From assembly GCA_949300385.1 (NCBI GenBank), contig CASGDZ010000002.1, forward strand, positions 111,758 through 175,757: a stretch of DNA of 64,000 nt, read 5' to 3'. The position numbers and the translations under genes are program-made. The DNA is from an uncultured Christensenella sp. (GTDB taxonomy: Bacteria > Bacillota > Clostridia > Christensenellales > UBA1242). How positions within the stretch are numbered: position 1 is the first letter of the stretch; every line of letters starts with the position of its first letter. Positions 1 to 30,405 of this stretch are shown piece by piece. The notes under the pieces are model-generated. The model saw only the letters and a program-made list of their open reading frames with translations. It made no database searches and was not told the DNA's origin.

Positions 1-3000
1 AGTGAAATATTTGTTAAAGTAGCCTTTACAGGAACTGCACTCGATGCCAGCACAATATCATTAAATCTGCCTGATTCAAGCCCTATAAAATTTGGCAATG
101 GGTTATCTAGCATAAATTTATCAGACACAGCAAATGTTAGGTTAATACAGACTTCGTCAAAGTATAATGTTTATGCAGTCAAATTTGCTAGTTGTAATCA
201 ACAACTTAATTCTGTTCGACTAGACATTTTGGCCGGTGAAGGCGCGGTAGGCGTAAGCACTTATGTTTATGTCAACAGTGTATTTTTAGCAGACGAAAAT
301 AGCATTGAAATATATACTGATGACGAAAATGCTAATGATTTCTCACAAAATGGCGAGTTGATGTTCGCGATAATTAGAGGTACAAGCAATAGCTTCCGCG
401 TTTTTGCAGATGTAAAAAATAACTACATTGGCGACGTTAATCCAATTCAAACGATTGAAAGAGTAGACAACAATAATACAAATAAAATTCAATTTACTCG
501 TATGTCAAATAGTGAATTTATTATTACGGGAATTTCTAACACTAACTATGCAGTTGAACTCACTTTAAAGATACATTATTTTACTAACGACAATGTAAAA
601 GTCGAATTAAAAAGCACAGAAAAGTCAATTTTGTTTGCAGTTTATGACACAATCGATAGCATATCCGCTACAAAAGAGAATAAGGATATTACATATATAA
701 ATTCAAAATATGAAGAAGCCTCTCAAATTGAAATCAATTTTAACGCTTTAACAAGCAATTCTAGCATAGTATCTGATAGTGTAATATTTACTGATGATAT
801 TAAATACGATAACGCAAATCAGATAAAAATTAGTTTATCAGACCCTAGTTTAAGAGAATTTGTTCAATTGTCCATTAAAACGACCGAAAGTGAGCAAATT
901 ATTCAATCAGGAGAAGTGCTTTCGCTTAATTCTGAAAACATCTTCCGTGGTACAATAATCGTTAGATTAACTCAGAATATAGCGATTGATTCTGTTTCTG
1001 TTGTATTCAGCGCTTTGCGATTTGGCGTTGAGTCCGGTATTAATAGATATGTAACTATTAATATAGCGGACTATGAATATGCTGATAACATAGTAGTTTC
1101 AGGTAATGAAATAGTCGAAGAAGGCTTGAACAACTATTGGATATATATGTCTTTCTTGTCAGTGGAAGACGGTGGACAGGATATTGCGAAATTTAATGCG
1201 CGTGCAGAATATGCAAATAATATTTCAAGTAGTTTAAGATTTGATGATTTGACATATAGACTATATCGTGTAAGCACTAGTTTGACAGGTGAAAAAACAG
1301 AAGAATTAGTTGTTGGCGGTGGTGTTAGCGTAACTATTGTTGATGGTGTTGTCACTATTACAGCAGAAAAATATTATGGTGGCGGAATATATCGTTTAGA
1401 ATTGGCAACCTTAGACTCGTACGACGATATTTTGGGCGATTATAAAACTACATTTAGCCTAAATCTTCGCATAAGTGATGGTGATATATATGCGTATACT
1501 ATATCTAATGCGGAAGATTTGAAAAATATTGCGAACGATATGGGCGCAAACTATGAATTAATACAAAGTTTTAGTATATCAGATTTTACACCAATAGGTG
1601 GAACGGACGGCTCAAATGTAGTCAATGCGTTTACAGGTAGTCTAAAAGGTGTAAATTCAAGCGTATCAACCGCAAAAAATTCAATAACTGTGGAAATTTC
1701 AAAAACGATTGAAGACGATACAAATACATATGCGGGCTTGTTTGCAATTCTAGGCAATGGTGCAGTAATTTCTGATTTAGATATTTATGTAAAATTTAAT
1801 ACATCAAGCTTGACCGCTAATAGCACTTTAAATATAGGTGCGGTTGCGGGGTTAAATAATGGCGCGACTATTACAAATGTCAATGTTAGTTATTTGCATG
1901 ACTATAGCGGAATCGATTTAACTAAGGTTTCATCAAGCATTAATTTTGGTTTAGTTGTAGGAACTAATAATGCAATAATAGATTTAAATGGTTGTAGCGT
2001 AATATTTGATGCAACGATATTAACAAAATCAAATACAAATATAGGTGCTATTGCGGGCATTAACACAGGTTCAATAGGTGGTACAAGTGGAGATGTCGAT
2101 TTAACAAGTGTAAGTTATTCTATTGAAGTTAATTTAGTTGTAAAGAATAGCGCACAAAATTCTCAGATTAATCTTGGCGGTGTAGTTGGTTATGCTTATG
2201 GCGGAAATGTAAGTACAATATCTAATATAGTTGTAGGTGGTATAATCAAACTTGTAAATGACGGCACAAATGTTAATGCAAACGGTAATGTCGGCGGTTT
2301 TGTAGGACGAGTTGGAGACGGAACAAGCAATAATGGCGCTAAGATTAGTTCATGTTATGCGCTCGGTCTTGATGTTATTAATGGTGCGAGTGGTAATGTT
2401 GCAGGTATTGTAGCAAATGCAAATGGCGTCGAAGTCACAAATACAAAATTCATGTCAGCGAATGTGGAATTTAATGCTATTACTAATTCTAATGGAAATA
2501 CTATAACGGATGGATTTGAATCAAAAGGTCAAATTACGGGGCAAAATAATGTCGCAGGTATTATAGCAACTTCTACAGAAAGCAATATTACAAATTCAAG
2601 TGTAGAGAATTTTATTACAGGAGACTTTTATACAATTGATAATACAGGCGTTTTAAATAATAATACAGGTGCGATTATAGCGGAAGGAAACGCTATCATA
2701 AATAAAAGTTTTGTAAACGCTAATATTAAATCTAGCGGTGAAATACTTTTAGTAACAACAGGTGCAAAGAATTCGTATTTTGTTGGAAAAGTTGATAACT
2801 TAGATACAACAAAATTAATATCAGTACAAGATGATACTTGCTATGCAGTAGTTTATACTGATGATTTAATATATTATTATAATTATGAAGGCAGTTGGAC
2901 AGAGATCGCAGACTATGATAATTGGTCTAGTTCGACACTTTTAAATATCGAATATACTTCAAGTTCTGATTGGAAGATAAATAATGAATACAATTTAATA

Positions 3001-6000
3001 AAAATAAATGTGCTAGAAGGTGAAATTACTAACACATATACTTATTATTTACCTTATTTGGTTCAAGATGGCGAACCTATTATGGTTATTGCACCTACAA
3101 GTATAAGCGCTGAGATAGATAGTGATTACATAATATCTATTGACTCAATCTATGAAGATAATTATACATTTAGCGAAAATGAGATCACATCAGTCGCAAT
3201 AATTAACTATCATAATGATATAAATAATCAATCAAATAACATTGAATATAATACATATGACATTAAAGATTTGATTAATTTAGCAATAGTTCCAGAAGAC
3301 GCTTTAGGTGGGGTTAGATATTCTATAATATCAGGCTCGTCTTACGCTTATATCAATTCTAATGATCAGATTGTGTTTACAGGTGTAAGCGGAACAAATA
3401 GAATAATAGTTCGTTGCTACTCTGTATTTAATAGCGAGATAGAAGAATATGTTGTATTCTATACGCAAATAGGACTTAGCAATTTGATAATAGATTCAAG
3501 TGAAATCTATTTAGAGAGCGAAGATACATATAGTATCACAACATATACGGGTGCTAATGATAAACAAATAACAATTGATGCTGAAAATATATTTGGTGGG
3601 CAACTTGGTCTTACTGATAGAATGTTTGAAAATATATTTGACACTAATTTATCAGAATATTTAAAAATAGAGACTAGCCCAAAAGATTCAAAAATAAAAA
3701 TTGTTGCAACAGGCAATGCGATAGGCGAATATTTAATTAATGTTAAAGATTTAACTTTTGATGGCGACACTTATAGCGAAACAATTACATTTACATTATA
3801 TTTCAATGCTAAGAGTTATTATGGCGATAGTTTCTTAAATGAAAGAATAGAATTAGCAACAGTAAATTTAATTGTAAATGTTAAAAAATCTGCTGACTAT
3901 ATAGTTATGAATAATGGTCAGCAAGTGATATCTACATCATCAACTGCAAACTTTAGTGCAGATTTGTATACAGGTTATACTTCTTCTAGTACAGAATCAA
4001 ATTATGTAAGTTTCAATAAAAATTACAACCTAAATAGGATTGAATTAAATGAATCAGATAAGGATAGTATAAACTTATCCGTATCATACAATAGCGAAGA
4101 TGAAAATAAAGTTATAACACTTTTAAATCAGGCTAATGTAGATAGTATATTAGATTTGTTTAACTATAATTTCTCATACACTGCATTGCGTGAACAAAGT
4201 TCTATTATAGGATATAAATATAATATAAATGTTAGTTTAAAAGAAGGATTTAATTATAGGTATATTACTGAACCTATTGAATTTATATTTACTGTAAGTT
4301 CAAAGACGGACGATCAAGTTAGCGGAGTCGCTAATATAACATATGAACCTACTCAAGTTTCAACAATTCGTTTAGAGAACTATTCGGCATCAAATGTAAC
4401 ATCAACAGGTGGTTATACAAATTTAGTTAGTAGCGGTACAACATCTTCATACATAATTACTCCAGGCGGATATGGCGGACTTATGACCATATATTTGGAA
4501 CCAAATTACTCAAATGTTTTATCAGCGACATTGACTAGTGGAACACTTTATGTTCCTAGTTTGAATAAAAATGTATCATTGCGTTTTGAGCAATTGATTT
4601 ACAATGCAAAAGCAAATGTCTATCAATCTATGTATCCAGCAAATAGTTCGACAACGGGTGCTTTAGATTTACGGTTAGCGTCAATCTATGACGGAGAAGA
4701 ATATGAATATACAGGAATAATTTATGTACGAGTTTTCCTTGAACATTTTTCTGGTACAGAAGGTAGCATAAGCGTAAACTTAGATGTTAGAACAAGTGGA
4801 AATGTGGAAAAGTCAATTTCAAAAACTTTCTTAACACAATATCTTCCAGGCGCAAGTCTAAGTTTTAACGGAATATCAGTTGGTAATAATGAATACTTAA
4901 TACAAGAAAATTCGTATGACAATGTAGTTGAATTAAATATTTATGGATATCAATTTAATTCACAACCATCTATCGGACTTGAATGGGTATTGCCTAATAG
5001 CGAAAGAGGTTTGGGTACTAGTTTGACTATTGATAATAAAAAATATAACATTTATGATTATGTAAATTATAGTATAGGTCAAGTAATTTCAAATATTGAT
5101 GGTTCGTATACGATGCGTGTGACTTTGTCTGTACGAGCAAATATTCCTGCTTCATTTAAATTGACGGCAAGGATGACTTTGACTACGGATACTGGCCTTA
5201 TTTCTAGCAGTGAGGAAGCATTAGTCTTCCACCCAACCGACTATATTGTGGATAATACTCAAACTACATTAGAGCGTATTAACAACGGCATAATGCAGAT
5301 GACAATTAATCAAAATCGTACATTAGAATTCGTATTTGAAACCGAATCAACTAATTATGATTATAGTGAAAATATTTATGATGTATTAGTTACAGATATA
5401 GGTGTTGAAAATCTAGCAAGTTTATTCAGTTATCAATTAAATGGCAATACATATAAACTTTCAGATGAAAATAGTGCATTCACAATCTCATATGTTGAAG
5501 TCAATGGCTCTGAGTTTAAGCGAATTGCAATAAATGGTCTTGCTACATTAGATGTAAATGTTAATTTCTCAATTAATTATGAATTTAATATAGATGAAAA
5601 TAGCGGTAGATATAAATTGCATTTCACAACGGGTGCAGGTGCGTATAGAATGTCGTTTACATTTAGATTGCAAATCTTGCCAGGTACAACCACAGAACAT
5701 GCTACTCCTATCTATTCAGCAGACGATATTTTCGATCCAAATGCAAACGAATGTTTGTTAAACGAAGGCGAAGATTATATCTTAATGAATGATATAACGC
5801 TAGAAAATCTAGTACCTATTGAAGTAAATATTGGTAGTCTTGATGGTAATAATAAGATAATCACAATTGCTTCGTTTGCTTCTGCGCTCGAAAGTGAAGA
5901 GGCGGTTGAGTATGGCTTATTTGCAAATATCGGCACATACACTCTTGCAGGAGAAGAATATCAAACAATACTAAAAAATGTTGTAGTAGATTATGGCTCA

Positions 6001-9000
6001 CTAAACTCTGATATCTCGTTTGTAAATAGCAATGCTACAGAGATATATTTTGGTGGACTTGTTGGAAGAAACAACGGCGGAATAATATACAACTGCGATG
6101 TTATGAACTTTAGCGCTAACAGTAAAGATGTCACATTGTTAATAAACAATTCGAGCGATGTAGATGTATACTTTGGTGGACTTGTAGGCGAGAACAGCGG
6201 AGTTATCACTAATTCACGCGTTGGGCGTTCTACATTTACACGAGTATATGTATCTTCTAGTGGTAATGAGAGCGTAAATTATAATTATGGACCGATTAGG
6301 CCGATTAATTTCTACATAGGAGATCCAAGTGTTAATGGACAAGGGTTTGTAGCGGTTGTCGGCGGATTTGTTGGCTCAAATAATGGAAAGATATCAAGTT
6401 CATATGTTGCAAATACAAGTATTATAAGTAGTTCGACAGCGCCAAATGAAAGTATGACGGCAGGTTTTGTTGGTGAAAATAATTCGGGCGCTAGCATAAT
6501 GTATTCGTATGTTAAGGCATTAGAGAGCACTGTTACATCAACAAATCCATATTCTACTGGCACGTATATAGAGAATTTAACTAATGGTACTGTAGCAGGT
6601 TTTGTAAACTACAATGCTGGTACGATTTCAAATTCGTACGCAAACACTGAATTAAGGTCTAAATCAAATGTGTTGTCAGGATTTGTGTATAATAATGCAT
6701 CTAGCGGTATTATAACTGAATCATATTCAGCATGTACTTATAATGGCAAACTTATTGGCGCAAATACAACAGCAGAACAACCATTTGTCGGCCGAAGCAA
6801 TGCGGAATTATTATCATATGGTATTATTGAAAATTGCTACTACATAATATCGGACGGAACAGTTATTGATACAAGCAAAATACCTAGTCCAGAAGATAAA
6901 GATCAAGCAGTTGCTATTAGTGAAACAAACTTTCAGGATCCTAATTTCTTAAATAACTTTGTATTTGTATTATCCAATTCTTTAACTAGTAGAAATTTAG
7001 GTGTTTGGTCGTACTATACAACAAATTCTAGTTATAGAATTTTACCAGAATTAATGACAGCGAATACGATTGCTACATCGTATAGGTATTTAGTTGGCGT
7101 AGGTGAAGAAGGTAACAATTATGATTATGCATATTCATTCTATTTAGGAAGCGCGAACAATCCATATACAATACAAGATGTACAAGAGTTCAATAGCATA
7201 ATGACAGGGGAAGGTTCAACTTCTATTTATGGATATTTTAGACTTATAAATGACTTATACTTCGATACAACAGCAGTAAGTACTCGTTTGAATTTTACAT
7301 TAGGTGATAGTTCAAATAAATATATCACTAGTTTCGAAGGGAACGGCATGACGATTAGCGGAATATACCTTGACGCTGAAGAGAATGTCGGCTCATCTAT
7401 TGGACTATTTGCGAATATCGAAAACGCTTATGTTAAAAATGTAAATCTAGAGTTTGCGAGCGAATTTAGTTCAGCAAATATCACATATGCGGGCGGATTG
7501 TCTGGAAAGATTAATAATAGTGTTATCATAAATATCAATTTGTCTGGCAATGCAACAACCATTAATGGTACAAGTTTTGCAGGTGGACTTGCCGGAATAA
7601 TTACTGGCAATAGTTTAATCTATGGCATTAATTCAAATTTGAATGCGGTTGCAAACAATGAGACAGGCGATTTCTATACAGGCACAGCATACTCTAATAT
7701 GTCATTTGCTGGTGGAATAGCAGGTCTTATTGACATCACTCCACGCGAGAATGAAGAATATAATCTTTCATACATTGAAATAAATGGTAGAGAGATGAGC
7801 ATTGGTGCAAATTATAATGCAAACATTCAAGCATATTATGCGGGTGGTGTTGCAGGTTATGCAGGAAGTGGAGTCAATGCGTTCAAAATAAAATTCACAA
7901 CTGGGAATTCAAATCGCATACGCGGTCAAGAGGCAGTTGGTGGATTATTTGGTGCTTTCTTAGGTAATTTAACCGCTTCTCAGGTGACTGCCGAAGAAGA
8001 TGAACAATATAATTACGACACAACGCTTGGACAATATGTCATGTCTATCGGATCAGAATCAAGCGATTTGGATACAACTCAGGCAGGAAATCTCAACCTA
8101 TTAGAAGGATATAATTATGCTGGAGGTTTAGTAGGTGTTGGATTAAATTCTTTAATAAGATCAAGTTACGCTAAAGTTGGGGTATATTCAGGTAGAAGCG
8201 TAGGAGGATTAATAGGTTTAGCAATATCTCCTAATATCCAATATTCATATGCTGTTCCTTATATCAATTTGGACAACATTTCATACTTTGAGAATGTTGG
8301 TGGAATGCTCGGGGAAACATATGAAAAAGGATATTATTCAGATAATATTTCTGGTTATGTTGGTGCGTTTAATTCAATAGCAGGTTCAAACGATTATTCG
8401 AAGTTAAGTTTTGCCTTTGCAACCTTGATAGTAGATAACGATAAATTAGTTGAAAATGCTGATAAAATTGTAAGTGATAAATATCTAAAATACTTTGATT
8501 ATATAGCAGGTTATTATGGTCAAGATTTAGGTAATTCTAATGGATATTTACATGGAACGGGTGGCGGAACTCCATTAATTTCTGTCTATGCAGGTAAAAT
8601 AAATTATTCAGAAAAAGCAATTGGCGACAACAATATAAATTTAGTTCAAAATTCTACCGAATCACGCGCAAATAATATAGAATTAAATGCGCTATACAAC
8701 ACAGAGAATGCAAGTAATCAAGCAGAGACTTTCCAACGCGTATTCTCTTCATGGTCTACAGAAGAATATTGGACACTAGATAGTAGTAGATACTTCCCAT
8801 TGTTGCTTAATAGGAACTCAACGGGTTATTACGAAATAAGTAATGATAATTTAGAAGAAGCAATTAATGTAATTATCAATAATCCTGATGGAAATTACAA
8901 GATTGTTGAAGATCTAGACTTTTCAACTATTTCTATTTCAGGCAACTTCATAATAGAGATAGGCGGGGACGGATTTACTGGCGTACTTATAGGTCAAAAA

Positions 9001-12000
9001 GATGATGGCTCAACTCCAACAATTTCTAACTTAACAGTTAACGCAACTAAAGACGGAGATACAGGTTTCTTCAATAGAACTACAGGTGCAAGAATTAGCA
9101 ATATTAATTTTGAATGGTCAAGTATTAACTTAAATGGAAAAACTATTGATTATGTTGGCGGAGTAAGTTGTAAAGATGTTGGATCACAATTTAATGGCTT
9201 AAATGTAAGCATGATAAATAATCCAAATTCAACTTATGCAATGAATATAATTTCGTCAGAAATATCGGCTATCAATCCGCCTAAAATTTCAGGATTTGGC
9301 GGTATAGTTGGATCAGGTACTAATAGCAATATTATATCTTGCTCATTTGTAGGAAACATAAGTGCAAATTTATCTGTAACGGAAAATAATAATGTAATTA
9401 ATGTTGGTGCAATTATCGGTAGAGCGGTCGCAGATAACACTCTTAAAACAGAAACATTAGGCATGATTGTCACTGACTCAAATGTAGGAAAAGATGGTGT
9501 AAATACAACATTTAATTTCTATAACTTAGGGTCATCAAATAGTTCAAATGTAAATATTGGCGGAGCGGTCGGTTATGCTGATAAAGCCGCGATTAGTGGG
9601 GTAAGTGTCGGCAGTTATAGTTATGCCGAAACTCCATATGTGGATATATCATTAGATCTGAACAATAATGACAACATATATTTAGGTGGACTTGTTGGAT
9701 ATAGCAACGAAACCCAAATGACATCGATTAACTCTTTGACGAATATATCTGTGACAGGCGGGGAAACAGCAAGCGGAACGACTACCGCAAGTGTAAATGT
9801 AGGTGGATTTGCTGGATTCATAAGTACAAATTCGACCACATCTGCATTCAGAAATAATGCTACCAAATCTAATATTGTTGTTGGCGAAGAAACTGCAAAT
9901 CATATCACAAATCTAAGATTGTCAACTGGTATTGCTTATGCAAGTTCAACTTCTACAAGCGATAAGATTAAGATAGAGCAATCGCTTTTCACAGGTAAAA
10001 TTGTTGCTACAAATGACTCGTCGATTGATGAAAAGAAAGTAAATGCAACAAATATTTGGGCAGGTGGCGCAGTCGCTTATGTAGACTTAAAGAATAGATA
10101 TACTTTAGTTCTCAGCGAAGTTATGAGCACAACTGACATATTTGTCGGCTCTGATGATGCAGACAATGGTACTAAACAACTATATGTCGGTGGACTTATT
10201 GGCGCAGGCGGATTAAACAATGAAACCCTTTCTGCTCCTATTATTGAATTAATAAATTGTGGTTCGACAGGTAGAATCGTTGCTATAAGTTCAAGTGGAA
10301 GTTCAACGGACAATATTCATATATATGTCGGCGGACTCGTTGCTTTGTCTTCAAATTTGACAATAAATTATTCATATTCAGCAACTTCAATTCTATCAGA
10401 CGGAATAAGCGGAATAAATTATAATCTAGCAAATATTGGTGCTATTGTCGGTGGATTGTTAAAAGATAGTACTATTTCGTCAACTCAAACTTACTATTCT
10501 AGTGATATAGCACTTGCTAGCGAAGATTATGATGGCGAAAGTGACGGATTATACAATTTATCTGCTTACAGATTTATCCTTACTAACGAATGGCATACTG
10601 CGTTTGCTAATGGAAATGTAGGCGTTTGGTATACAAATAGCACTTACATGCCATATCTCACATCACTTTATACTACGCTACAAAATTATGGCATTATGAA
10701 ATCTTCTCAAACTAATCCATATGGTGAGAATGGGACTAATATATTAAATCCTAAAATAATTAATACAAATACTATTACATTAGAAGAAGATTATACATTC
10801 TATTTGTTATCAACTAATATGAATAATAATTTAAAACTAAATACAAATTCAAATTCTACTTTGAATGGAATAATGATAGCGAACGAAACTAACTATATGG
10901 TAGACTTGTTATCAAGCACAGATGTTGGATCGTATAGTTCATTCATTCCTACTATTGCTAATCATTCTGCAATATCAAATTTACATGTTTTATTCACAGC
11001 AAATTCTACGCTAGCATTAACAGGAAGTTCTGAAATACTCGTAGCATCAATGATTGCGGGCAACAATAATGGAATTATATTTAATTCTTCTGTAATTGGA
11101 ACGGGAATTGAATTGAATAGCAATAGTAGTCAAACATATTTTGGCGCAATTGCGGGCGAAAACAATGGCTTAATTTCTCATTCATATTCTACAATAGAAA
11201 TTATTAATACCAATATTACAAATGGTGCAATTTCTGGTATAGTTGTAAATAACTATGGCGCGATGGATTCATGCTATTTTACAGGATATATTAATAATTC
11301 AAATAGCAGTACAAGCAGTACAACTTTAGCGTCAGGATTGATATATTCGGCTCAAGAGAGTGAAACAACTAATGGTTATATCCATAACTCATACATGGGT
11401 GGCGTTATTGAAAGCGTATCTCCAAATGGAAATAGTTTTATTGCGTATTTTGATAATACAAAGAATTATGGCACTAATAACTTTATAGACAATTTATCTA
11501 ATTTTGACAGCAATTATAGTAATAGCATAAAGGGTGTATCGACATTTAATATTATGCGCGCAAAAGATTTGTCTGGTAAATGGGCAAGTGTTATAAATAC
11601 TAAGGAATATAATGATAAACCAACTTATTATATAGATATGACAAGCAAGACATTCGGTTATAATTATGGTTATCCTATCTATGACTTTAATAAAGTTGGT
11701 ACAAGTCAAAATCTTTTAACTTACTATCAACTATATACAGGTAATGGTACAACTAGCGATAATATAGATGAAAGTGCTATATTAAATAATTATGTAAATG
11801 ATGCTGTTAATAGTACAACAGCTAATAACTATTATAGAATACCGCATCTTGGAGTTTTACATTCAATTCAAGGTTTAGCAAACATAATTGATAGTAATAA
11901 TAGTAATGTTACTTATACTAAACTAAATTATGTTTTAATCTATGATATTGACGCTTCAAACTATTCCACATCTAATGTTGCTGTTGGAAGTTATGATAGT

Positions 12001-15000
12001 AATTCAACTTCCAGTTCAGATGATGAAGGCTTTTATGATGGAGCAAATGCACAATTTAACGGAAGATTTATCACGAACAAATATTATGAATTTAATGAGT
12101 ACGAAATTAATTATAATGGCTGTGAACAAGTTTGTACAATAAGCGGATTGACAGGCTCAGGCTTGTTTGACAATATAATATATGCTAAGTTTGAATACAT
12201 AAAATTTGGCAACATGAATTTGACTTCAAGCGGAGCGCTTGGCGTAAATGTTATCAGTAATTCGACGGAAACAAGCGATAGCGAACAAAATAGCGGAATA
12301 TTAGTCGATCATATATGGATTGGAGATAGTGAAAACACAGCGGAATTTACAGGAGAAAATGTCGGCGGATTATTTGGAACAATCAGCGGAAATACAATCG
12401 AAATCAAGAATTTAATTACATATTCTGAATTAGGTTATCAAATAACGATAAAAGCAAATGGCAACAATGGACTTATTGCTAGCACAATGAAAGGCGGGTT
12501 AATAAGTTTAGATGATTGTGAATTAGGTGTAAACTTTGCTGGTGTGACAGTCGATGGTAGCAGTACTAACGGCGGATTAATCGGTCAAATGACCAATGGA
12601 ACTATTAATGGCGAATCAAATGAAATTAGAGTTGCTAACGCCGATTCAGGTGCTCCAAGCGATGTATTAGGCGGAATAGTAGGTAACATAACTTCTGGAG
12701 AAACTAACAAGATTTCAATTTCTAATATAAATGTCTCATTTATAACTGGAAATAATGGTATAAATGCCGTTGCTTTAGGCGGATTTGTTGGTACTATGAC
12801 AAGCGGAACAGCAACTATATCATCATGTAAATTTATTGCTAATAGTGATATTTCGGCAAATTTAATTGATCAAGCGAGATTTGGGATAATCGCTGCTCAA
12901 ATTCAAGGCGGAACATTGTCTCTATCAGGCATTGAAGCAAATGAAGATTTTCAAATTAATATTAACTATAATACTGGCGACAACCAAATGATAAATTATA
13001 GTCAAGCATATGGTATTCTCTTCGGCGAAGTTCAAGGCGGAATTATAAAACCAACTACAGACACAACAGATAATTTATCATTTAATAAGATAACACTTTA
13101 CACTGTAGGTGGCTCAAGTGCTTCTAAAAATGTAGGATCAGTAATAGGCTGGTATACAGGCGGACAGGTTGATATTGTATTTGACGGAACTACGAACTTT
13201 ACAATTTATGGCCATGAAAATGTAGGTGGAGTGATCGGTAATTATACTTATTCTGATTCGGGGTATATAAATGTTGCACAGATCACAACTATTGTTCATG
13301 GAGATTATAATGTAGGCGGATATATTGGAAGTGCTGTAATAAATACAAGTGATACAGGTGAGAATAGTTCAACTAATTTGACTTCACTCGTAGGTAGCGG
13401 TTATAATTATTTACAAAGCAATACTTCATATTCCACAATATATACACTAGGTAGCAATAATTCTACAAATAAGGGCAACATTGGTGGCATATTTGGATAT
13501 TTAAAAGGTGACTTAACACTTAAATCAGAAGATGAAGATAATGTAGAAAGTACAGCAAATAATAATTCGAATGGCACAACAATTAAGAATTTAAATACTA
13601 TTTATATAGCGAATAATAATGTCAAGATCAATGGATTTGATACATATACAAATATAGGTGGAGTTGTAGGTCGACTTGAAGGTAATATAGACGATGCATT
13701 AAATAAAGGCACGATAGCGTATTCAATTTCAAATATAGAAGGATACAAGTCAGGATCAGACTCATTTATAATAGAAGATACATCATTAGGAACAAATGCA
13801 AATAGCGCTACTTATGCGGTGAATGTCGGCGGTATAGTTGGTAAGATCACTAAAACTGGTGATAGTCAAATGACTTTAACTGTGAAAAACATTCAAAATA
13901 TGGCAGATATTGAAGGCTATCAAAATGTCGGCGGACTCATTGGATATGTGAGCGGTATTACTATAACTAATGAGATTGAAGAGAACGAAGATGGTGAAGA
14001 GAGCGGAGATGATACTCAAACACTCGCTACTACAGAAACATCAAGTAGTGGTACTATTTCTGGAGTATTGAATGTTGGTGGCGCGTTTGGTTATGTTGAT
14101 AACGGAGCATCAACAACACAAATTACAGGCATAGCACTCAACGAAGTACATGTCAATGGTAACTCAAATGTCGGCGGATTAATAGGAATGTACAAGGGCG
14201 GATATGTAGGCGAATCTTCCGTCGATAATGTCGAAGTAAAAGGTATTTATTATACGCTCATTAAATCAAATCAAACTGGTTCTGATATATCAACATATTA
14301 TTATAATTACATTCCAACCAGCGTAGGTGGATTTATTGGAACGGCACATAAACTAAATACTGATGTTTCAGGTGCAATATATTCCAACACTTTAACGAGC
14401 GTGACGGTTACAAGCGAAAGCGAAGGAACTTCATATAACACGCAGGCTGATGAAGAAACTTCAAAAGTTATATCAACTGTTCAAAACTATATGCATTCGC
14501 ATTATTTAGTAGCAGACAGTGAAAAGGATGATTATTCCAACATTCTTGAATATAATGAAGAGACAGCAATTGCGGTATTTGACGATATGACTACGGGTTT
14601 TGGCGGATTTATTGGTTCAGCCAACATGGCGGCAACAAGTGGAACTTATCAAGATATCACTTCAACAGGAGTTACAGAGGAAAAAGACATTTCATCAAAT
14701 ACAATTAATAGTATTACTATTAATCCAAGTTTGGGCGTAAATGTAGGTACATACTACGGATACTATTATGACTCGGATACGACAGGAAGCAAAGATGTAG
14801 GACTTCCAACTTTAACATCAGGCGAGACTAGCGTCAATGGCGAGACTAGCGTCAATGGCGAGACCAGTGTCAATGGTGCATATAATATCGGCGGTATTAT
14901 CGGTTGCTATCATTCGACTTCAAATACAGCAAAAAGTTTTGAAGACCTTAGTACTGCAATAAATTCTTTTGAAGGCAAAATATCAGTGCAAAAACAAGGG

Positions 15001-18000
15001 GAAACAAATATTACAGGTATGTATGTCGGCGGAATTTTCGGTAAATATGTTGGAAATGCTACAAATCTAAAATTAAATACAAATAATAAAACGATCGTGA
15101 CTATTGATTTAACAAATGCTTACTATGTCGGCGGACTTATAGGTAGACTTGAAGGTAATTTAACGGCAAGTACAAAGGATGGCACATACAATAAGAGCGA
15201 CAATAGTGTAGCGAATGTCGTCTCATATAATTCGACTGAAGTGTTAGATAACTTTGGCGGACTCGTAGGTATGTTAAAAGTTGGAGAAGTGGACGGAGGA
15301 ACTACTGCAACAGTAATAGGTGAACATTATTATCCGTTTACTATAAATACTATTGAAAATAGTAATTACGCCGATGTAGCTACAACTTATGACGCAACAG
15401 AAAGTGAAGACAATATATATCTAACCGCAATAGCGGGTTATGTGAATCAGGATAGTTTCACAATCTCTGCTACTTCAGAAACAACATATTATGAAGTGGA
15501 AAGAGATAGTGAAAATAATATAACTTATACACCAAATAATCCATTGAATCCAGATGAGACATTCGGTTGGGCTAAAGATTATACTATGTTTAAGACCATG
15601 CAACGCAATATTCCACAATCTGAGAATAAAGGTGCAACATGGGACGCAATATCAATAGTATACGACGCATCATATATCACATATGTCGGCACTATGGACA
15701 ACTTGGATATCTTTGACTTATATAAGGGGGAAAAGACCAAAAAAGGTGAAGAGTATACAGAAGATTATATCTGTTATACCATCGTAGAACCAGTCGAAGG
15801 CGACGCTACATTATATTGCGCATTAGGAATAGCATCTGTATATTATGACGATGATGGTAATTATGCTGATGAAGATGATTTTTATAATGATGGAGCAAGT
15901 AATTTTAGCAGATTTTGGCAATGGACTGGCGCAATATTTGGAGTAAATGATCCTCCTACTGATATATATTATATAGATATTGCATTAACAGATCCAGGAC
16001 TTACTTATTTGGATTATAAATCAAACAGCTATAAAACAACAAATGGCGGAAATACTTTGAGTATTGTAGCCAAAGCAGAAGAATTAAAATATTTATTGTG
16101 TTCAGTAGATAATTACTATCAACTGATAGATGAAGACGATAATGATAATAGTGTAAGCAATGACAATAATGAATATAAAGAAAGGAAACCAGAAAAAACT
16201 TATTTCCAATTAGATGTCATATATGAAAATTCAAGCGTTCCAGTAGAATATGATAAAGATGGAAATCCTACTGCGTACGGAAGTGATGGCTACACTGCTT
16301 CTAGTGGATCATTGTTTGAAGCAAACGGAGTTGCTACAAGTGCTGCTGAATCAGCACTTAAATCAGGAGATTCGGCTTATCCATGGTTGGAATGGGTACA
16401 GACTGCTATAGATTTAGCATTAGCATTAAGTTTTGCAGGTGGAGTAACAGCTCTTAGTGCTAAATTTATAGGTAAAGCGGCATTAAAACAAGCAATAAAA
16501 AGTACAGCTAAATTTATAGCTAGACTTACTATAGAATTTGGTGCCAAAAAAATATTGGCGTTATTAACGGTTAGTTCAGTGGCAGCAAGTTTAACAGGAG
16601 CGACTTATTCGACTATTCGCGGACAAACTATGGGCTATTTAGGGCCAAGTTATATGCGGGAAATAACATACGATTCAAATGGTCATGTATATGCACAAAC
16701 GGATGAAACAATATCTAATGAATATGGTATATACTATATGTATTACTCTTCAACTCGACCAGCAGATTATTATATAAATAGATATTTCGTTTATATCGTT
16801 GAAGATGATAGTGTCACAACTCATAAATACTCAGCATCGCAATTGACATTAGGAGACATTGAGACATCTTCGTCAAGCGATTATTATGGAGCATATAAAG
16901 TCACTGCCATAAATGGACAAGCAGTTTCGGAAGGAACTAATGTTTACGCATATGATTACTATTTCTATGAAAAAGGCGTATATTATGTAATTGCTGATAC
17001 TATCTCTACGGAAACTATTCTTTACCAAAAATATTTTGATCCAGATCAATGGGGAGATGATATCACTCTTCCTATCTATACGAATAATTTAGGATACTAT
17101 TATGTTGCAGGTTCATATAATGGTGATACTGACGAATATAGTTATGCAAATAGATATGGTAATAACTTAATACCTAAGGACAGCGAAGGTCAATATGTAA
17201 TGGATGATGAATCATTTGAAAGCGAATTCTTCGAAGTATATAATACTAAAGCTTCATTTGATAAAGAATTAAATTTTGTTCCTGTAGAAAATGGATATAT
17301 GTCTAAAACTTATGGTTTAACAATTAATAGTAATGATTTTACAATAAGTGATGTATACAATATTTCATATTACTATGGTTATGGATATTTAGATAAGGTA
17401 TACTATACTGCAAATGGAAATATAAAAATCACTTATGCAGGTGCAAGTACAGGCGCAAACATTAAACCATTAATAGGTACATTTACATATACAGGCGCCG
17501 ATGGAGTTGGAACCGAGGGTATAGATTATATTACTCTGACTTATACTGATGATGAAAATAATACTAATCAATACGATTTTATTTTAACAAGTATATCTAC
17601 TGATGGTTCGGGGTCTGATTATCAAGATTTAAGTTTAGATGGAGTCCCTAATCTAGTCACTAATAAAAATACTACTAAATATGTAAACCTATATCCAACA
17701 TCGTTTACAAATCCTTATACTATTCAAATATCAGAAGAAGATGTCCCTTCATATCCGATTTTTACTGAAGTTGAAATAGAAAATGAAGATGGAACTAAAA
17801 CAACAAAAGATGTGGAAGTATATTTCGTTGAAACGAATTTATCAGCAATAGAAGATATTAGTAGTGTACAAACATTAAGCAAATCTGCAACATTCTATTA
17901 CTTTAATGGCGGTTACGAAACAAGGACAATTACGGATAATTCCACAAATAAGACTACTACATATGTCATAAGAGAAAGTACTGAAAATTATTATACGATT

Positions 18001-18793: not shown

Positions 18794-19762
18794 CTATTTG
18801 CTAAGTTCATAACTACCCTGATTTATCTTACCTTGACTATCAAAATATGTAATAGATTGATAATTGTTTTTAAATTCTTCTAGGTTATCTGTGACGATTG
18901 TTATTTTAGACATTTTTAAAACATTTGTAGAATAATCGTAATAACCAGGGAATGTATGATTTTCCATTATACGCAATTCTTTATTGTTTGATATCATTTC
19001 TTTATTTGATTTATCTACTGTTCGTACATTTAAAGTAAATTCACAATCTTGATTAGCACTTACTACATCTATTTTAACATTTTCATTACCTATATACTGT
19101 CCAGATAGATAACTGATTCTATTTTGTAGTGATGTGAAAGTTTTTGTATCTACATTCACATGTGATTCAACTGTTGCTCTTTTTTGAGAATCTAATTCTT
19201 GAATAAAGAATGCTGATTGAATATATTCTTTATTATGTAGCATATATAAGTCGTCATATTCTTTTTCTGTCAAAGGATATGACAATACATAGTTACCATA
19301 ATATCCTGCACTCGTTTCAGCCTTAACTGATAAATACAATTTAGATTCATCATTATTCATTATGTAAGCAACACTTTCGCATGACAACTCATCATTCTTA
19401 ATAGCGTCTACATCATATCCTTCACGCTCTAAAAATGTATATGGTATTGGAGACTCAGCGTTTTCAGCATAGACACTATTAGTTGCTATAAAATCTTCAA
19501 TAACTTGGTCGTAGTAAGGGTCGGATAACACATCGTTTAAGATATCACTATACTTGCTCTCAGTATTTCCACCAATAATATCAGTGTTACCGCCACCAAT
19601 ATCGTTGCTATTAGACATAGAATTACAAGCGGACAAACCCATGCTTAACACCATAGCACCCGCAACAGCAAGCCCTGCAACAGCACGCTTTAATTTAGAA
19701 CTATGTGCTTCTTTCTTTAAAGCTTTTCTAGTTTTAACTATTAAATTTTCATTTTCTTCCAT
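18794..19762 (-). CDS. Orphan lipoprotein (322 aa)
   Basis: Lipobox L-S-A-C at residues 43-46 (AGAMVLSMGLSAC|NS) after a hydrophobic h-region. SD GAGGT upstream of the ATG. No family recognised in the mature part. Confidence 0.85.
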   Translation of the reverse strand: MEENENLIVKTRKALKKEAHSSKLKRAVAGLAVAGAMVLSMGLSACNSMSNSNDIGGGNTDIIGGNTESKYSDILNDVLSDPYYDQVIEDFIATNSVYAENAESPIPYTFLEREGYDVDAIKNDELSCESVAYIMNNDESKLYLSVKAETSAGYYGNYVLSYPLTEKEYDDLYMLHNKEYIQSAFFIQELDSQKRATVESHVNVDTKTFTSLQNRISYLSGQYIGNENVKIDVVSANQDCEFTLNVRTVDKSNKEMISNNKELRIMENHTFPGYYDYSTNVLKMSKITIVTDNLEEFKNNYQSITYFDSQGKINQGSYELSK

Positions 19763-29658: not shown

Positions 29659-30405
29659 ATGAAAAATAAATTTATAAATAATTTAAAAGAATTTATATTA
29701 AACTTAATTTATCCTAAACATATTAAGTGTATTTTTTGTGATGAAGAATTGGACGAAAGGGCAAAATTTGATACCTGTTACAAATGTGCTGGCAATTTAC
29801 CATATATTACTAGACCATGTTTAAGATGTGGGAAACAAATAAATGAAGGGAACGATCTAGTGTGTTATGATTGTAAGAAAGTAAATTATTCATTCATCAG
29901 CGCGCATAGTGTCTTTGAATATAAAGACGAGATTATATCAGCAGTCCATAAATTTAAATATTCATCACAAAAATTTCTGTATGAGCCATTTGCTGAGTAT
30001 ATGTGCGAAAAGTTTGCTACACTCAATCTATCCCCTGACATTATTACAGCCGTTCCGCTGCATATAAATCGTGAACGCGAACGAGGATACAACCAAGCAA
30101 AATTATTAGCGACCTTTATATCTAAAAAATTTAATATGAAATATTTAGACCTTTGCGAAAAGATAAAGGATAATACGAGTCAGACCGAATTAGATTATAA
30201 AATGAGACAAGAAAATGTTAAAGATGTTTATAAATTGTTGAAAAACGAACGAAAATTTATTAAGGGAAAGTCAATTTTGCTTATAGATGATATTTTTACA
30301 ACGGGAGCCACAACTAATGAAATTTCAAAATTGTTAAAAAGTGCTGGCGCAAAAGAAATAAACATTTTGACTTTTGCACACGCGCAACATAATATTAAAT
30401 ATTAG
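29659..30405 (+). CDS. comFC: ComF-family protein (ComFC-like, phosphoribosyltransferase fold)
   Basis: N-terminal Cys pairs (CIFCDE, CYKC, CLRCGK, CYDC). Also PLH..RERERGYNQAKLLA and the C-terminal PRTase motif ILLIDDIFTTGATTNE. No SD upstream. Confidence 0.85.
   Translation: MKNKFINNLKEFILNLIYPKHIKCIFCDEELDERAKFDTCYKCAGNLPYITRPCLRCGKQINEGNDLVCYDCKKVNYSFISAHSVFEYKDEIISAVHKFKYSSQKFLYEPFAEYMCEKFATLNLSPDIITAVPLHINRERERGYNQAKLLATFISKKFNMKYLDLCEKIKDNTSQTELDYKMRQENVKDVYKLLKNERKFIKGKSILLIDDIFTTGATTNEISKLLKSAGAKEINILTFAHAQHNIKY

What the first reader, a model, noticed from the sequence alone, without database searches (positions are those of the whole stretch)
1480..15400. Six concatenated 'entry motif - GLUG array - aromatic cap' modules, with a recurring ATGTCGGCGG DNA word
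The giant ORF is organised rather than uniformly low-complexity. Each module opens with a motif such as YAYTISNAEDLKNI...FTGSLKG, NPYTIQDVQEFNSI...FEGNGMTISG or YYEISNDNLEEAINVI...GFTGVLIG. It then runs through many ..N.G.I.NS....G...VGGLVG.. turns; I count roughly four dozen GG[LIVF][IV]G units by eye. It closes with a Trp/Tyr/Pro cap (VWSYYTTNSSYRILPELM, EEYWTLDSSRYFPLLLN, VWYTNSTYMPYLTSL, YGYPIYDF). This is the pattern I associate with the Pfam GLUG motif of IgA1-protease-type streptococcal surface proteins, here multiplied and without a catalytic domain. At the DNA level the word (a/t)ATGTCGGCGG recurs at least 9 times, for example near 2288, 10185, 10325, 12358, 13815, 13925, 14168, 15031 and 15125. 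This gives dispersed microhomology that could drive module gain or loss.
Basis: partly seen in the sequence, partly recalled or inferred. Interest (0 to 1): 0.55.

Follow-up and report, generated by a model that had tools for sequence, protein, structure and literature searches.

The report
Giant six-module beta-helix surface lipoprotein
The region is most of a 6,807-residue membrane-anchored surface protein built from six old, diverged GLUG-type beta-helix modules; it is conserved module for module in related uncultured gut Clostridia, and is a new member of a known kind of giant adhesin-like protein, not a recombining repeat array.

Summary
One reading frame is open from window base 1 to the stop at 18760-18762, and the source contig's gene call is 6,807 aa. 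It holds six modules, each with an entry motif, a Gly-Gly beta-strand array and an aromatic/Pro cap.

Pfam GLUG passes its threshold in module 2 and is sub-threshold in modules 1, 3, 4 and 6. A module-4 profile retrieves GLUG-annotated proteins. AlphaFold folds module 2 as a beta-helix, and its best PDB matches are BACOVA_03286 and the beta-helical gating domain of streptococcal IgA1 proteases. No HExxH or other catalytic domain was found.

Corrections:
- The strict GG[LIVF][IV]G count is 23, not about 48.
- The DNA word occurs 8 times exactly, not 9 or more.
- Module 1 is separated from module 2 by an 860-aa spacer.

The "microhomology drives module gain or loss" idea is not supported. Modules share only about 30% identity and there are no long DNA repeats. 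Eight complete syntenic orthologues (40-60% identity) and more distant fragments keep all six modules and nearly the same unit counts. The DNA word encodes (N/Y)-V-G-G with a biased codon choice that is only partly explained.

Orthologues begin with a lipoprotein signal. One orthologue is in Ca. Onthoplasma, a reduced-genome lineage, which suggests a cell-attachment role.

The parts
1..18762 (+). Giant gene, 5'-truncated by the window edge. It encodes 6,253 of 6,807 codons, with the stop at 18760-18762.
   Evidence: Frame 1 is open from base 1. The ENA contig gene call is 6,807 aa. Intact colinear orthologues of 6,689-7,204 aa exist.
1..1467 (+). N-terminal non-GLUG region. In orthologues a further ~554 aa lie upstream, including a lipoprotein signal peptide.
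   Evidence: No Pfam or NCBIfam hits. The orthologue N-termini read MKKK...SACGD.
1468..3120 (+). Module 1 (sub-type A). Entry YAYTISNAEDLKNI at 1489; cap TYYLPYLVQ at 3040-3066.
   Evidence: GLUG scores 18.0 and 16.1 bits. hhalign to module 2 gives 96%.
3121..5697 (+). Conserved ~860-aa spacer with no Gly-Gly units and no recognisable domain.
   Evidence: No Pfam, NCBIfam or PDB hits. Column identity among orthologues is 64%. No rung-HMM hits.
5698..7056 (+). Module 2 (sub-type A). Entry PIYSADDIF...DYILMNDI...GSLDGNNKIITI...YGLFA; cap VWSYYTTNSSYRILPELM at 7003.
   Evidence: Pfam GLUG 30 bits, above the cut-off of 20.5. AlphaFold beta-helix with pTM 0.76. Foldseek matches 3n6z, 6xjb and 7uvk at probability 0.99-1.0.
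7138..8820 (+). Module 3 (sub-type B). Entry NPYTIQDVQEFNSI at 7159; cap EEYWTLDSSRYFPLLLN at 8761.
   Evidence: GLUG 19 bits in the half-module scan. The homologue P0001 is colinear across the module 3/4 junction. The whole-module scan gave no hit in 9 orthologues.
8821..10680 (+). Module 4 (sub-type B). Entry YYEISNDNLEEAINVI at 8827; cap VWYTNSTYMPYLTSL at 10624.
   Evidence: Peptidase_M26_N 23.8 bits and GLUG 18.9 bits. GLUG hits 6 of 9 orthologues, best E 5e-8. The profile retrieves PF07581 proteins. The AlphaFold model is all-beta but low confidence, pLDDT 53.
10738..11700 (+). Module 5 (sub-type A, degenerate, no strict GG unit). Cap YGYPIYDF at 11665.
   Evidence: hhalign to module 2 gives 91%, E 1.1e-6. 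The window copy has no Pfam hit, and 1 of 9 orthologues hits GLUG.
11830..15600 (+). Module 6 (sub-type B, longest). It has 17 Gly-Gly units and ends FGWAKDYTMFKTM at 15562-15600.
   Evidence: hhalign to module 4 gives 94%. GLUG scores 12.6-13 bits.
2288..2297 (+). ATGTCGGCGG, copy 1 of 8. The others start at 10325, 12359, 13823, 13925, 14168, 15023 and 15125. All are in the same codon phase: (a/t)AT GTC GGC GGn = (N/Y)-V-G-G.
14821..14876 (+). The only true tandem DNA repeat in the gene: 18 nt x 3.1, encoding GETSVN x 3.
16384..16617 (+). Two hydrophobic segments (16384-16473 and 16552-16617) flanking a Lys-rich loop. This is a putative transmembrane hairpin.
   Evidence: Hydropathy scan and orthologue alignment; coordinates.
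16618..18759 (+). Tyr/Asp-rich C-terminal region, poorly conserved, with no recognisable domain.

Best explanation
The region is the bulk of one very large (6,807-aa) cell-surface protein of an uncultured gut Clostridia bacterium of the Christensenellales group. Six anciently duplicated, now highly diverged modules each fold (shown for module 2, inferred for the others) into a right-handed parallel beta-helix of the GLUG / IgA1-protease-NTD2 type. The entry motif forms the N-terminal start of the helix. The G-G-hydrophobic-hydrophobic-G strands form successive coils. The invariant Trp/Tyr/Pro motif closes the C-terminal end. The modules come in two sub-types: A (modules 1, 2, 5, with G-[GA]-F-V-G-x-N-x-G-x-I-x-N-S-Y) and B (modules 3, 4, 6, with N-V-G-G-[LIVF]-[IV]-G). 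The protein has no recognisable catalytic domain. By orthology it is exported with a lipoprotein signal and lipid-anchored at its N-terminus. It carries a probable transmembrane hairpin about 790 residues before the C-terminus. I infer that it works as a rigid, tens-of-nanometres-long, non-enzymatic surface fibre or adhesin whose beta-helix faces bind ligands on partner cells or host material. The recurring DNA word is the coding image of the (N/Y)-V-G-G strand start with a lineage-specific codon-context bias. It is not a recombination device.
For: Shown:
- A single open frame with a 6,807-aa gene call.
- Entry and cap motifs at the stated positions, with their aromatic, Pro and Gly residues invariant in 9 orthologues.
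- 33-34 Gly-Gly units against 0 in shuffled controls.
- Pfam GLUG above its cut-off in module 2 and sub-threshold in modules 1, 3, 4 and 6.
- A module-4 profile finds 57 proteins, nearly all PF07581-annotated.
- AlphaFold folds module 2 as a beta-helix, pTM 0.76. Its best PDB matches are 3n6z and the IgA1 proteases 6xjb, 6xja and 7uvk, at probability 0.99-1.0. The NTD2 of those proteases is a beta-helix (PMC9637739).
- Inter-module homology by hhalign is 91-96% for pairs 1-2, 2-5 and 4-6.
- No orthologue has HExxH or LPxTG. No other Pfam, NCBIfam or PDB hit was found anywhere in the protein.
- Orthologues and P0013 start with a lipobox signal peptide.
- The hydrophobic pair with a Lys-rich loop is conserved.
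- Eight complete orthologues are colinear with six modules, and the downstream gene is syntenic.
- The neighbouring 3,007-aa gene is another beta-helix (Chlam_PMP) plus Flg_new surface protein.

Context: the orthologue-bearing genus Onthoplasma belongs to GTDB family UBA1242. Its genomes are below 1 Mb and a partner-dependent lifestyle has been proposed (PMC12306168).
Against: - Only module 2 has a confident model. The module-4 model is low confidence (pLDDT 53) and its PDB matches are not significant.
- Module 3 and module 5 have no significant Pfam hit as whole modules, and the module 2-3 profile match is weak at 11%.
- TM-scores to IgA1P/3n6z are modest, 0.38-0.50.
- The cap region is modelled at low confidence.
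- The window's own N-terminus is not in the window, so the lipoprotein signal is inferred from orthologues.
- The adhesin function and the surface topology are inferred. No binding partner, expression data or localisation data exist.
- Beta-helices are also scaffolds of polysaccharide lyases and hydrolases, which are not excluded.
- The GTC-GGC codon linkage is only partly explained.
Confidence: 0.6

Rival explanations
1. The beta-helix modules are enzymes (polysaccharide lyase, glycosidase or depolymerase type, as in pectate lyases and phage tailspikes), and the protein is a giant multi-catalytic glycan-degrading machine.
For: Foldseek lists PL6 alginate lyases, GH28, fucoidan lyase and tailspikes below the IgA1P hits for both models. 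The organism lives in a glycan-rich gut habitat.
Against: Those matches have probabilities of 0.02-0.54 and E-values of 0.08 or worse, and TM-scores normalised to query length (TMq) of 0.09-0.29. The significant matches are to non-catalytic beta-helices (3n6z, IgA1P NTD2). No Pfam or NCBIfam lyase or hydrolase family hit was found.
Confidence: 0.1
2. The array is a contingency or variation locus. The dispersed ATGTCGGCGG words act as microhomology for illegitimate recombination or short-patch gene conversion, adding, deleting or homogenising units or modules.
For: The word is 17-fold over the synonymous-shuffle expectation, and 0 of 2000 shuffles reach 8. The same bias occurs in the two closest orthologues. 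In the window, Val-GTC occurs at sites where orthologues have Ile, Ala or Leu. Module 6 length varies from 1,192 to 1,346 aa.
Against: There are six modules in every orthologue and fragment down to 33% identity. Unit counts per module are nearly constant, and indels of 25 aa or more inside the arrays occur in only one orthologue. The flanks of the eight copies are 37% identical, near random. The gene has no long DNA repeats. Modules share about 30% protein identity. Part of the word follows from a Gly-Gly GGC-GGA codon-pair preference that is also seen in other genes.
Confidence: 0.05
3. It is an IgA1-protease-like (M26) enzyme whose catalytic domain is too diverged to be recognised or lies in the unannotated regions.
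For: A sub-threshold Peptidase_M26_N match at the module-4 entry, found in 5 of 9 orthologues. The structural match is to IgA1P NTD2.
Against: No orthologue has HExxH. There is no Peptidase_M26_C, G5 or LPxTG hit, and M26_N stays below its cut-off (23.8 against 27.7). Profiles of the spacer, module 6 and the C-terminus find nothing in the PDB. The M26_N match covers only the beta-helix entry part (profile positions 143-232).
Confidence: 0.02
4. The giant ORF is an assembly artefact or a decaying pseudogene made of low-complexity sequence.
For: The composition is biased (N, S, G, T and I at 9-11% each). A whole-protein Pfam scan gave no hits.
Against: The same intact, colinear, syntenic ORF of 6,689-7,204 aa is present in at least 8 independently assembled MAGs. 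There are hundreds of invariant columns.
Confidence: 0.01

Closest known systems
GLUG-motif beta-helix (Pfam PF07581) as in the NTD2 gating domain of M26 IgA1 metalloproteases (S. pneumoniae 6XJA/6XJB, G. haemolysans 7UVK)
   Same: The GLUG motif is above the Pfam cut-off in module 2. The entry region matches the end of Peptidase_M26_N. The predicted fold matches NTD2 at Foldseek probability 0.99-1.0.
   Different: There is no M26 catalytic region (no HExxH, no M26_C), no G5 and no LPxTG. There are six beta-helix modules instead of one. The anchor is a lipoprotein signal plus a transmembrane segment rather than a sortase signal. Sequence identity is only 13-14%.
Single-module GLUG lipoproteins of Bacteroidales (about 990-aa proteins P0023-P0078; crystal structure 3N6Z, BACOVA_03286, 'putative IgA1 protease')
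   Same: These have a lipobox signal, then one entry motif plus a GLUG array. They were retrieved by the module-4 profile (E down to 4e-15). 3N6Z is the best structural match of module 2.
   Different: They have one module in about 1,000 aa, against six in 6,807 aa. They come from a different phylum and have no C-terminal transmembrane region. Their function is also unknown.
Giant extracellular proteins of small-genome Firmicutes, e.g. Giant1-5 of Apilactobacillus kunkeei (PMC12863079)
   Same: These are 3,000-8,000-aa surface proteins with beta-solenoid domains. They occupy several percent of a small genome, sit in adjacent giant genes, and are proposed adhesins.
   Different: In A. kunkeei there is one N-terminal SRRP-like beta-solenoid followed by an alpha-helical rod and SH3b. 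Here there are six GLUG-type beta-helices, unrelated spacers and no SH3b. No sequence relationship was detected.
Chlamydial polymorphic membrane proteins and other autotransporter passengers with GGA[ILV]/FxxN beta-helix repeats (PMC11166332)
   Same: A short Gly-Gly-hydrophobic tetrapeptide marks each coil of a long adhesin beta-helix. The neighbouring 3,007-aa gene does hit Chlam_PMP.
   Different: The giant protein itself has no Chlam_PMP hit and no beta-barrel translocator. It comes from a Clostridia-class organism rather than a type V secretion system.

Membership tests
Pfam GLUG (PF07581) beta-helix proteins | Match to the PF07581 HMM at or above the gathering score (20.5 bits). | tested here: met
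   Module 2 scores 30 bits. The others are sub-threshold: module 1 at 18.0/16.1, module 3 at 19.0, module 4 at 18.9, module 6 at 12.6/13.0, and module 5 with no hit. Module-4 orthologues hit in 6 of 9 cases, best E 5e-8.
Pfam GLUG (PF07581) beta-helix proteins | A reciprocal profile search retrieves proteins annotated with PF07581. | tested here: met
   The module-4 profile found 57 hits, nearly all annotated PF07581. P0010, found with the module-2 profile, is also PF07581.
Pfam GLUG (PF07581) beta-helix proteins | Right-handed parallel beta-helix fold like 3N6Z / IgA1P NTD2. | tested here: met
   Module 2: pTM 0.76; Foldseek matches 3n6z, 6xjb, 6xja and 7uvk at probability 0.99-1.0, E 1e-3 to 4e-2, TM 0.34-0.50. 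Module 4 is inconclusive (pLDDT 53, only non-significant beta-helix matches). Modules 1, 3, 5 and 6 were not modelled.
M26 IgA1-specific metalloendopeptidases | HEXXH zinc-binding motif plus the downstream Glu (PMC9637739). | tested here: not met
   The window protein and all 12 orthologues and fragments lack HExxH.
M26 IgA1-specific metalloendopeptidases | Peptidase_M26_N and Peptidase_M26_C domains above their Pfam cut-offs. | tested here: not met
   M26_N scores 23.8 bits, below 27.7, and covers only profile positions 143-232. No M26_C hit was found.
M26 IgA1-specific metalloendopeptidases | LPxTG sortase anchoring and G5 domains. | tested here: not met
   No conserved LPxTG and no G5 hit.
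Bacterial lipoproteins (signal peptidase II substrates) | N-terminal signal peptide ending in a lipobox [LVI][ASTG][GA]C. | tested here: inconclusive
   The window lacks the first ~554 codons. All orthologues and P0013 have MKK...(F/L)(S/T/A)(A/G)CG. No dedicated predictor such as SignalP was available.
Type V (autotransporter / Pmp) beta-helix adhesins | C-terminal beta-barrel translocator and Chlam_PMP or passenger-domain HMM matches. | tested here: not met
   The C-terminal 1,050 aa have no Pfam, NCBIfam or PDB hit. The giant protein has no Chlam_PMP hit; only the neighbouring gene does.
Contingency / copy-number-variable repeat genes | Long near-identical DNA repeats or simple-sequence tracts, with copy-number differences among relatives. 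| tested here: not met
   The only tandem repeat is 18 nt x 3. Dispersed repeats are 43 nt or shorter at 62-90% identity. Every orthologue has six modules and stable unit counts.

The most novel reading that the evidence does not exclude
The protein, together with the adjacent 3,007-aa beta-helix/Flg_new protein, is the conserved partner-attachment organelle of the reduced-genome UBA1242-type Christensenellales. In this reading it is a tether of about 6,800 aa, anchored at both ends (N-terminal lipid and C-proximal transmembrane hairpin). It would take about 2-2.7% of a genome below 1 Mb and would mediate an obligate cell-to-cell, episymbiont-like lifestyle in the animal gut.
Probability: 0.15. 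Interest if true: 0.6.

Novelty: new member of a known kind. Interest (0 to 1): 0.3.

Why it matters
The modules themselves are not new. GLUG-type beta-helices and giant repetitive surface proteins are well known, and no new mechanism emerges here.

What is worth keeping is the family. It is a previously undescribed lipoprotein of 6,700-7,200 aa with a fixed six-module plan. It is syntenic and intact across a whole clade of uncultured gut Clostridia. That clade includes Ca. Onthoplasma (GTDB UBA1242), whose genomes are below 1 Mb and whose lifestyle is proposed to be partner-dependent (PMC12306168).

A gene this expensive that survives genome reduction is a concrete candidate for the attachment apparatus of that lineage. 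It is also a target for localisation or enrichment experiments.

The finding also shows that a 'repeat array' can be evolutionarily static, and that a striking recurrent DNA word can be mostly a codon image of a protein motif.

Tried and rejected
- A whole-protein Pfam scan in two ~3,100-aa pieces gave 0 families. This was a false negative for long, biased sequences, because module-sized pieces gave the GLUG and M26_N hits.
- Self-BLASTP of the protein returned only the identity hit. A chunked self-BLAST gave just 3 weak pairs, so profile-profile comparison was needed.
- An exact 60-mer search for the source genome in the GTDB representative genomes found nothing, so the missing 554 N-terminal codons could not be read. 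The giant protein itself is not returned by the protein database searches.
- PDB sequence and profile searches with modules 2, 4 and 6, the spacer and the C-terminus found no meaningful hit.
- NCBIfam found nothing.
- phmmer of module 4 against 1.84 billion representatives found only 11 hits, mostly fragments of orthologues.
- The AlphaFold model of module 4 was low confidence and its Foldseek result was uninformative beyond 'beta-helix class'.
- A terminator scan after the stop codon found nothing.
- I considered and rejected recent duplication or long-tract gene conversion as the source of the DNA word, because the flanks are 37% identical and codons are not conserved at orthologous sites.

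Full report
**What is at the coordinates.** The finding lies inside one reading frame that is open from window base 1 to a stop at 18760-18762. The '229' start listed by the ORF tool is only the first TTG in that frame. A look-up of the convergent downstream gene recovered the source contig (ENA ERZ17292904, 187 kb). There the giant gene is called as 6,807 aa, so about 554 N-terminal codons lie outside the window. I number residues in the window frame, where residue i corresponds to nt 3i-2. The protein is rich in N, S, G, T, I and Y and poor in Cys and Trp.

**Check of the observation: protein motifs.**
- The strict pattern GG[LIVF][IV]G occurs 23 times, not about 48. GG[LIVFAM][LIVFA]G occurs 34 times. 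Only a very loose pattern reaches 45.
- An HMM built from the 34 units finds 33-34 units in the real protein and none in 20 shuffled copies. The units are distributed 2/3/6/5/0/17 over modules 1-6.
- An alignment of the six entry regions gives a shared consensus: Y-x-I ... N-Y-x-L-x-x-D-[IL] ... F-x-G-x-L-D-G ... I-x-N-L ... G-L-F-A-x-I-x-N-A. Module 5 is the weakest.
- The modules are not all adjacent. Module 1 (nt 1468-3120) and module 2 (nt 5698-7056) are separated by a conserved ~860-aa spacer with no unit and no recognisable domain.

**Check of the observation: the DNA word.**
- ATGTCGGCGG occurs exactly 8 times in 64 kb. All copies are on the + strand inside this gene, against 0.01 expected. 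The site near 10185 has one mismatch.
- All eight copies are in the same codon phase, (a/t)AT GTC GGC GGn, and encode (N/Y)-V-G-G.
- Shuffling synonymous codons within the gene predicts 0.48 copies, and 0 of 2000 shuffles reach 8. So there is a codon-choice signal beyond the amino-acid motif: 9 of 23 V-G-G sites use GTC-GGC, against 0.86 expected.
- Part of this is general. Gly-Gly prefers GGC-GGA in the other genes of the window too (10 against 3.0 expected; 8 against 3.0 in the 3,007-aa gene). The Shine-Dalgarno-like GGA-GGN is used only 4 times in 74.
- The Val-GTC preference is not explained. It is shared by the two closest orthologues but is weak or absent in the 40%-identity clade. Codons are not conserved at orthologous sites.
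- The 60 nt flanking the eight copies are only 37% identical.
- The gene has no direct DNA repeats longer than 43 nt, and those that exist are 62-90% identical. The only tandem repeat is 18 nt x 3, encoding GETSVN, at 14821-14876.

**What the modules are.**
- Pfam gives GLUG (PF07581) at 30 bits, above the 20.5 cut-off, in module 2. It gives 12.6-19 bits in modules 1, 3, 4 and 6, and nothing in module 5.
- The entry of module 4 matches the end of Peptidase_M26_N at 23.8 bits, below the 27.7 cut-off. Across orthologues of module 4, GLUG is found in 6 of 9 (best E 5e-8) and M26_N in 5 of 9.
- A profile of module 4 retrieves 57 proteins from the 5.8-billion-protein set. Nearly all are ~990-aa, PF07581-annotated lipoproteins with a single entry-plus-array module.
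- AlphaFold2 on module 2, with a 7-sequence alignment, gives pTM 0.76. It shows about 13 coils of three short strands. A ~35-residue loop and the cap region are low confidence.
- The best PDB matches of that model are 3N6Z (B. ovatus BACOVA_03286), the S. pneumoniae IgA1 protease (6XJB/6XJA) and the G. haemolysans IgA1 protease (7UVK), at probability 0.99-1.0. Generic beta-helix enzymes follow at low probability. In those proteases the matching part, NTD2, is a beta-helix that gates the active site (PMC9637739).
- The module-4 model is all-beta but low confidence (pLDDT 53). It only recovers the beta-helix class without significance.
- Profile-profile comparison links modules 1-2 (96%), 2-5 (91%) and 4-6 (94%), and the entries of 3-4 (60%). 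Modules 2-3 are linked only weakly (11%). I therefore distinguish sub-type A (modules 1, 2, 5) from sub-type B (modules 3, 4, 6).
- By BLASTP the modules are barely similar to one another, about 30% over short stretches. The duplications are ancient.

**No catalytic part.**
- There is no HExxH and no conserved LPxTG in the window protein or in 12 orthologues and fragments.
- Outside the modules, Pfam and NCBIfam find nothing.
- Profiles of the spacer, module 6 and the C-terminal region find nothing in the PDB.

**Relatives and module boundaries.**
- A scan of one genome per GTDB species found 13 loci encoding close relatives. They come from an 'uncultured Christensenella sp.', Ca. Onthoplasma faecigallinarum and several 'uncultured Clostridia bacterium' gut MAGs.
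- Eight of these loci hold complete ORFs of 6,689-7,204 aa. They align colinearly with the window protein at 39-60% identity with few gaps.
- All six entry and cap motifs are conserved, and their aromatic, Pro and Gly residues are invariant.
- Module lengths and Gly-Gly unit counts are nearly constant. The only large difference is a ~170-aa insertion near the module-1 cap in the 40%-identity clade.
- More distant relatives (L007 at 33% identity, P0013 at 35%) are still colinear in a single HSP of 4,000-5,400 aa.
- The convergent downstream lipoprotein gene is syntenic in five loci.
Both are answered in favour of the modular beta-helix reading. The 'module gain or loss' corollary is contradicted.

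**Anchoring and context.**
- All orthologues and P0013 begin with a signal peptide ending in a lipobox, for example MKKKIFSILTAVFIFVMCGVFSACGD.
- At residues 5462-5539 (nt 16384-16617), two hydrophobic segments flank a Lys-rich loop. This arrangement is conserved in the orthologues. By the positive-inside rule (established knowledge) this suggests a hairpin with both flanks outside. That is an inference.
- The following ~700 residues are Tyr/Asp-rich and poorly conserved.
- The next gene downstream on the + strand (20436-29459, 3,007 aa) has a signal-anchor, a GLUG-type entry motif, Chlam_PMP repeats above the Pfam cut-off and Flg_new repeats. So the locus encodes two giant beta-helix surface proteins.
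- The rest of the window is housekeeping: a ComF-like gene, RecD2 and a run of short co-directional + strand ORFs further downstream, whose identity was not tested.
- Onthoplasma belongs to GTDB family UBA1242. Its genomes are mostly below 1 Mb, and an obligate partner-dependent lifestyle has been proposed (PMC12306168). If the window's organism is of that family (an inference from orthology only), this 20.4-kb gene is about 2-2.7% of its genome.

**Mechanism.**
- Shown: the protein contains beta-helix modules of the GLUG type and no detectable enzyme domain.
- Inferred: it is exported, lipid-anchored and probably also membrane-inserted near its C-terminus.
- Inferred: the six helices form rigid rod segments. 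With about 27 residues and 4.8 Å per coil, the ~3,300 residues in modules would span roughly 50-60 nm if extended.
- Inferred: the protein acts as an adhesin or fibre that contacts partner cells or host material.
- Rivals are listed with their evidence in the rival explanations: enzyme modules, a contingency locus, a cryptic M26 protease, and an assembly artefact.

**Comparison with known systems.**
- The protein meets the tested criteria for the GLUG beta-helix family.
- It fails the defining features of M26 IgA1 proteases, autotransporters and contingency repeat genes.
- The entry-plus-GLUG module is a widespread building block. It also occurs in FMN_bind-GLUG proteins of Sporobacter and Syntrophomonas, and in a 4,598-aa FliD_N-containing protein of a Vampirovibrio MAG.
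- The nearest functional analogues are giant beta-solenoid surface proteins such as Giant1-5 of Apilactobacillus kunkeei (PMC12863079).

**Verdict.** It is a new member of a known kind, with modest intrinsic novelty. The DNA word is mostly a codon image of a protein motif and shows no sign of driving rearrangement. The most interesting angle is ecological: a very expensive, strictly conserved surface protein in a probable reduced-genome, partner-dependent gut lineage.

Noticed in passing
window 1-420; L002-L013 starts: The giant ORF runs off the 5' edge of the window, and the listed start at 229 is an artefact. The full gene call is 6,807 aa. Orthologues start with a lipoprotein signal peptide (MKK...SACGD).
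   Followed up: yes
window 16384-16617: Two hydrophobic segments flank a Lys-rich loop, conserved in orthologues. This is a probable transmembrane hairpin about 790 residues before the C-terminus of a protein that is also N-terminally lipid-anchored, which implies an unusual double anchoring.
   Followed up: partly
window 16618-18759: A ~700-aa Tyr/Asp-rich C-terminal region. It is the least conserved part of the protein (11-37% identity and up to 48% gaps in 100-aa windows) and has no Pfam, NCBIfam or PDB relatives.
   Followed up: partly
window 3121-5697: A well-conserved ~860-aa spacer between modules 1 and 2 (64% mean column identity among orthologues) with no detectable domain or solved relative. 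This is 'dark' sequence.
   Followed up: partly
window 14821-14876: The only true tandem repeat in the gene: 18 nt x 3.1, encoding GETSVN x 3, inside module 6. It is a possible small length-polymorphic site.
   Followed up: no
window 20436-29459: A second giant gene (3,007 aa) with an N-terminal signal-anchor, a GLUG-type entry motif, Chlam_PMP repeats (26.4 bits, above the cut-off) and Flg_new/Flg_new_2 repeats. It is another beta-helix surface protein next to the first.
   Followed up: partly
window 18794-19762 (-), promoter-like site 19901-19873 (-): A convergent 322-aa gene encodes a probable lipoprotein (lipobox LSACNS) of unknown family. It is preceded by a perfect 12/12 sigma-70-type promoter match with an extended -10 TG. 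It is syntenic downstream of the giant gene in five orthologous loci.
   Followed up: partly
window 1-18759 and other genes of the window: There is a strong Gly-Gly codon-pair bias. GGC-GGA is 3- to 5-fold over expectation in the giant gene and in other genes. GGA-GGN, which reads GGAGG and is Shine-Dalgarno-like, is almost avoided (4 of 74). Val-GTC is linked to a following GGC-GG only in the giant gene and its two closest orthologues, and this linkage is unexplained.
   Followed up: partly
L004, L005, L006, L009, L010, L011 (module 1 cap region; window-frame residues ~935-975): The 40%-identity clade carries a ~170-aa insertion just before the module-1 cap that is absent from the window, L013 and L002. 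It is the only large architectural difference found.
   Followed up: partly
L015:3041-16834: A 4,598-aa ORF in a Vampirovibrio MAG has a FliD_N (flagellar cap) N-terminus (58 bits) and, further on, a GLUG/M26_N-type entry region. A giant FliD-fused beta-helix protein is an odd architecture.
   Followed up: partly
L016:9437-14803; L017:1626-6971: Proteins of ~1,780 aa in Sporobacter termitidis and a Syntrophomonas MAG combine an FMN_bind domain with GLUG arrays. This shows that the entry-plus-GLUG module is reused in quite different extracellular proteins.
   Followed up: no
window 29659-30405 and 30710-32932 (-): A ComF-like phosphoribosyltransferase with a double zinc ribbon, and a RecD2-type helicase, flank the two giant genes. 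The locus is ordinary chromosomal context, not an obvious mobile element.
   Followed up: no
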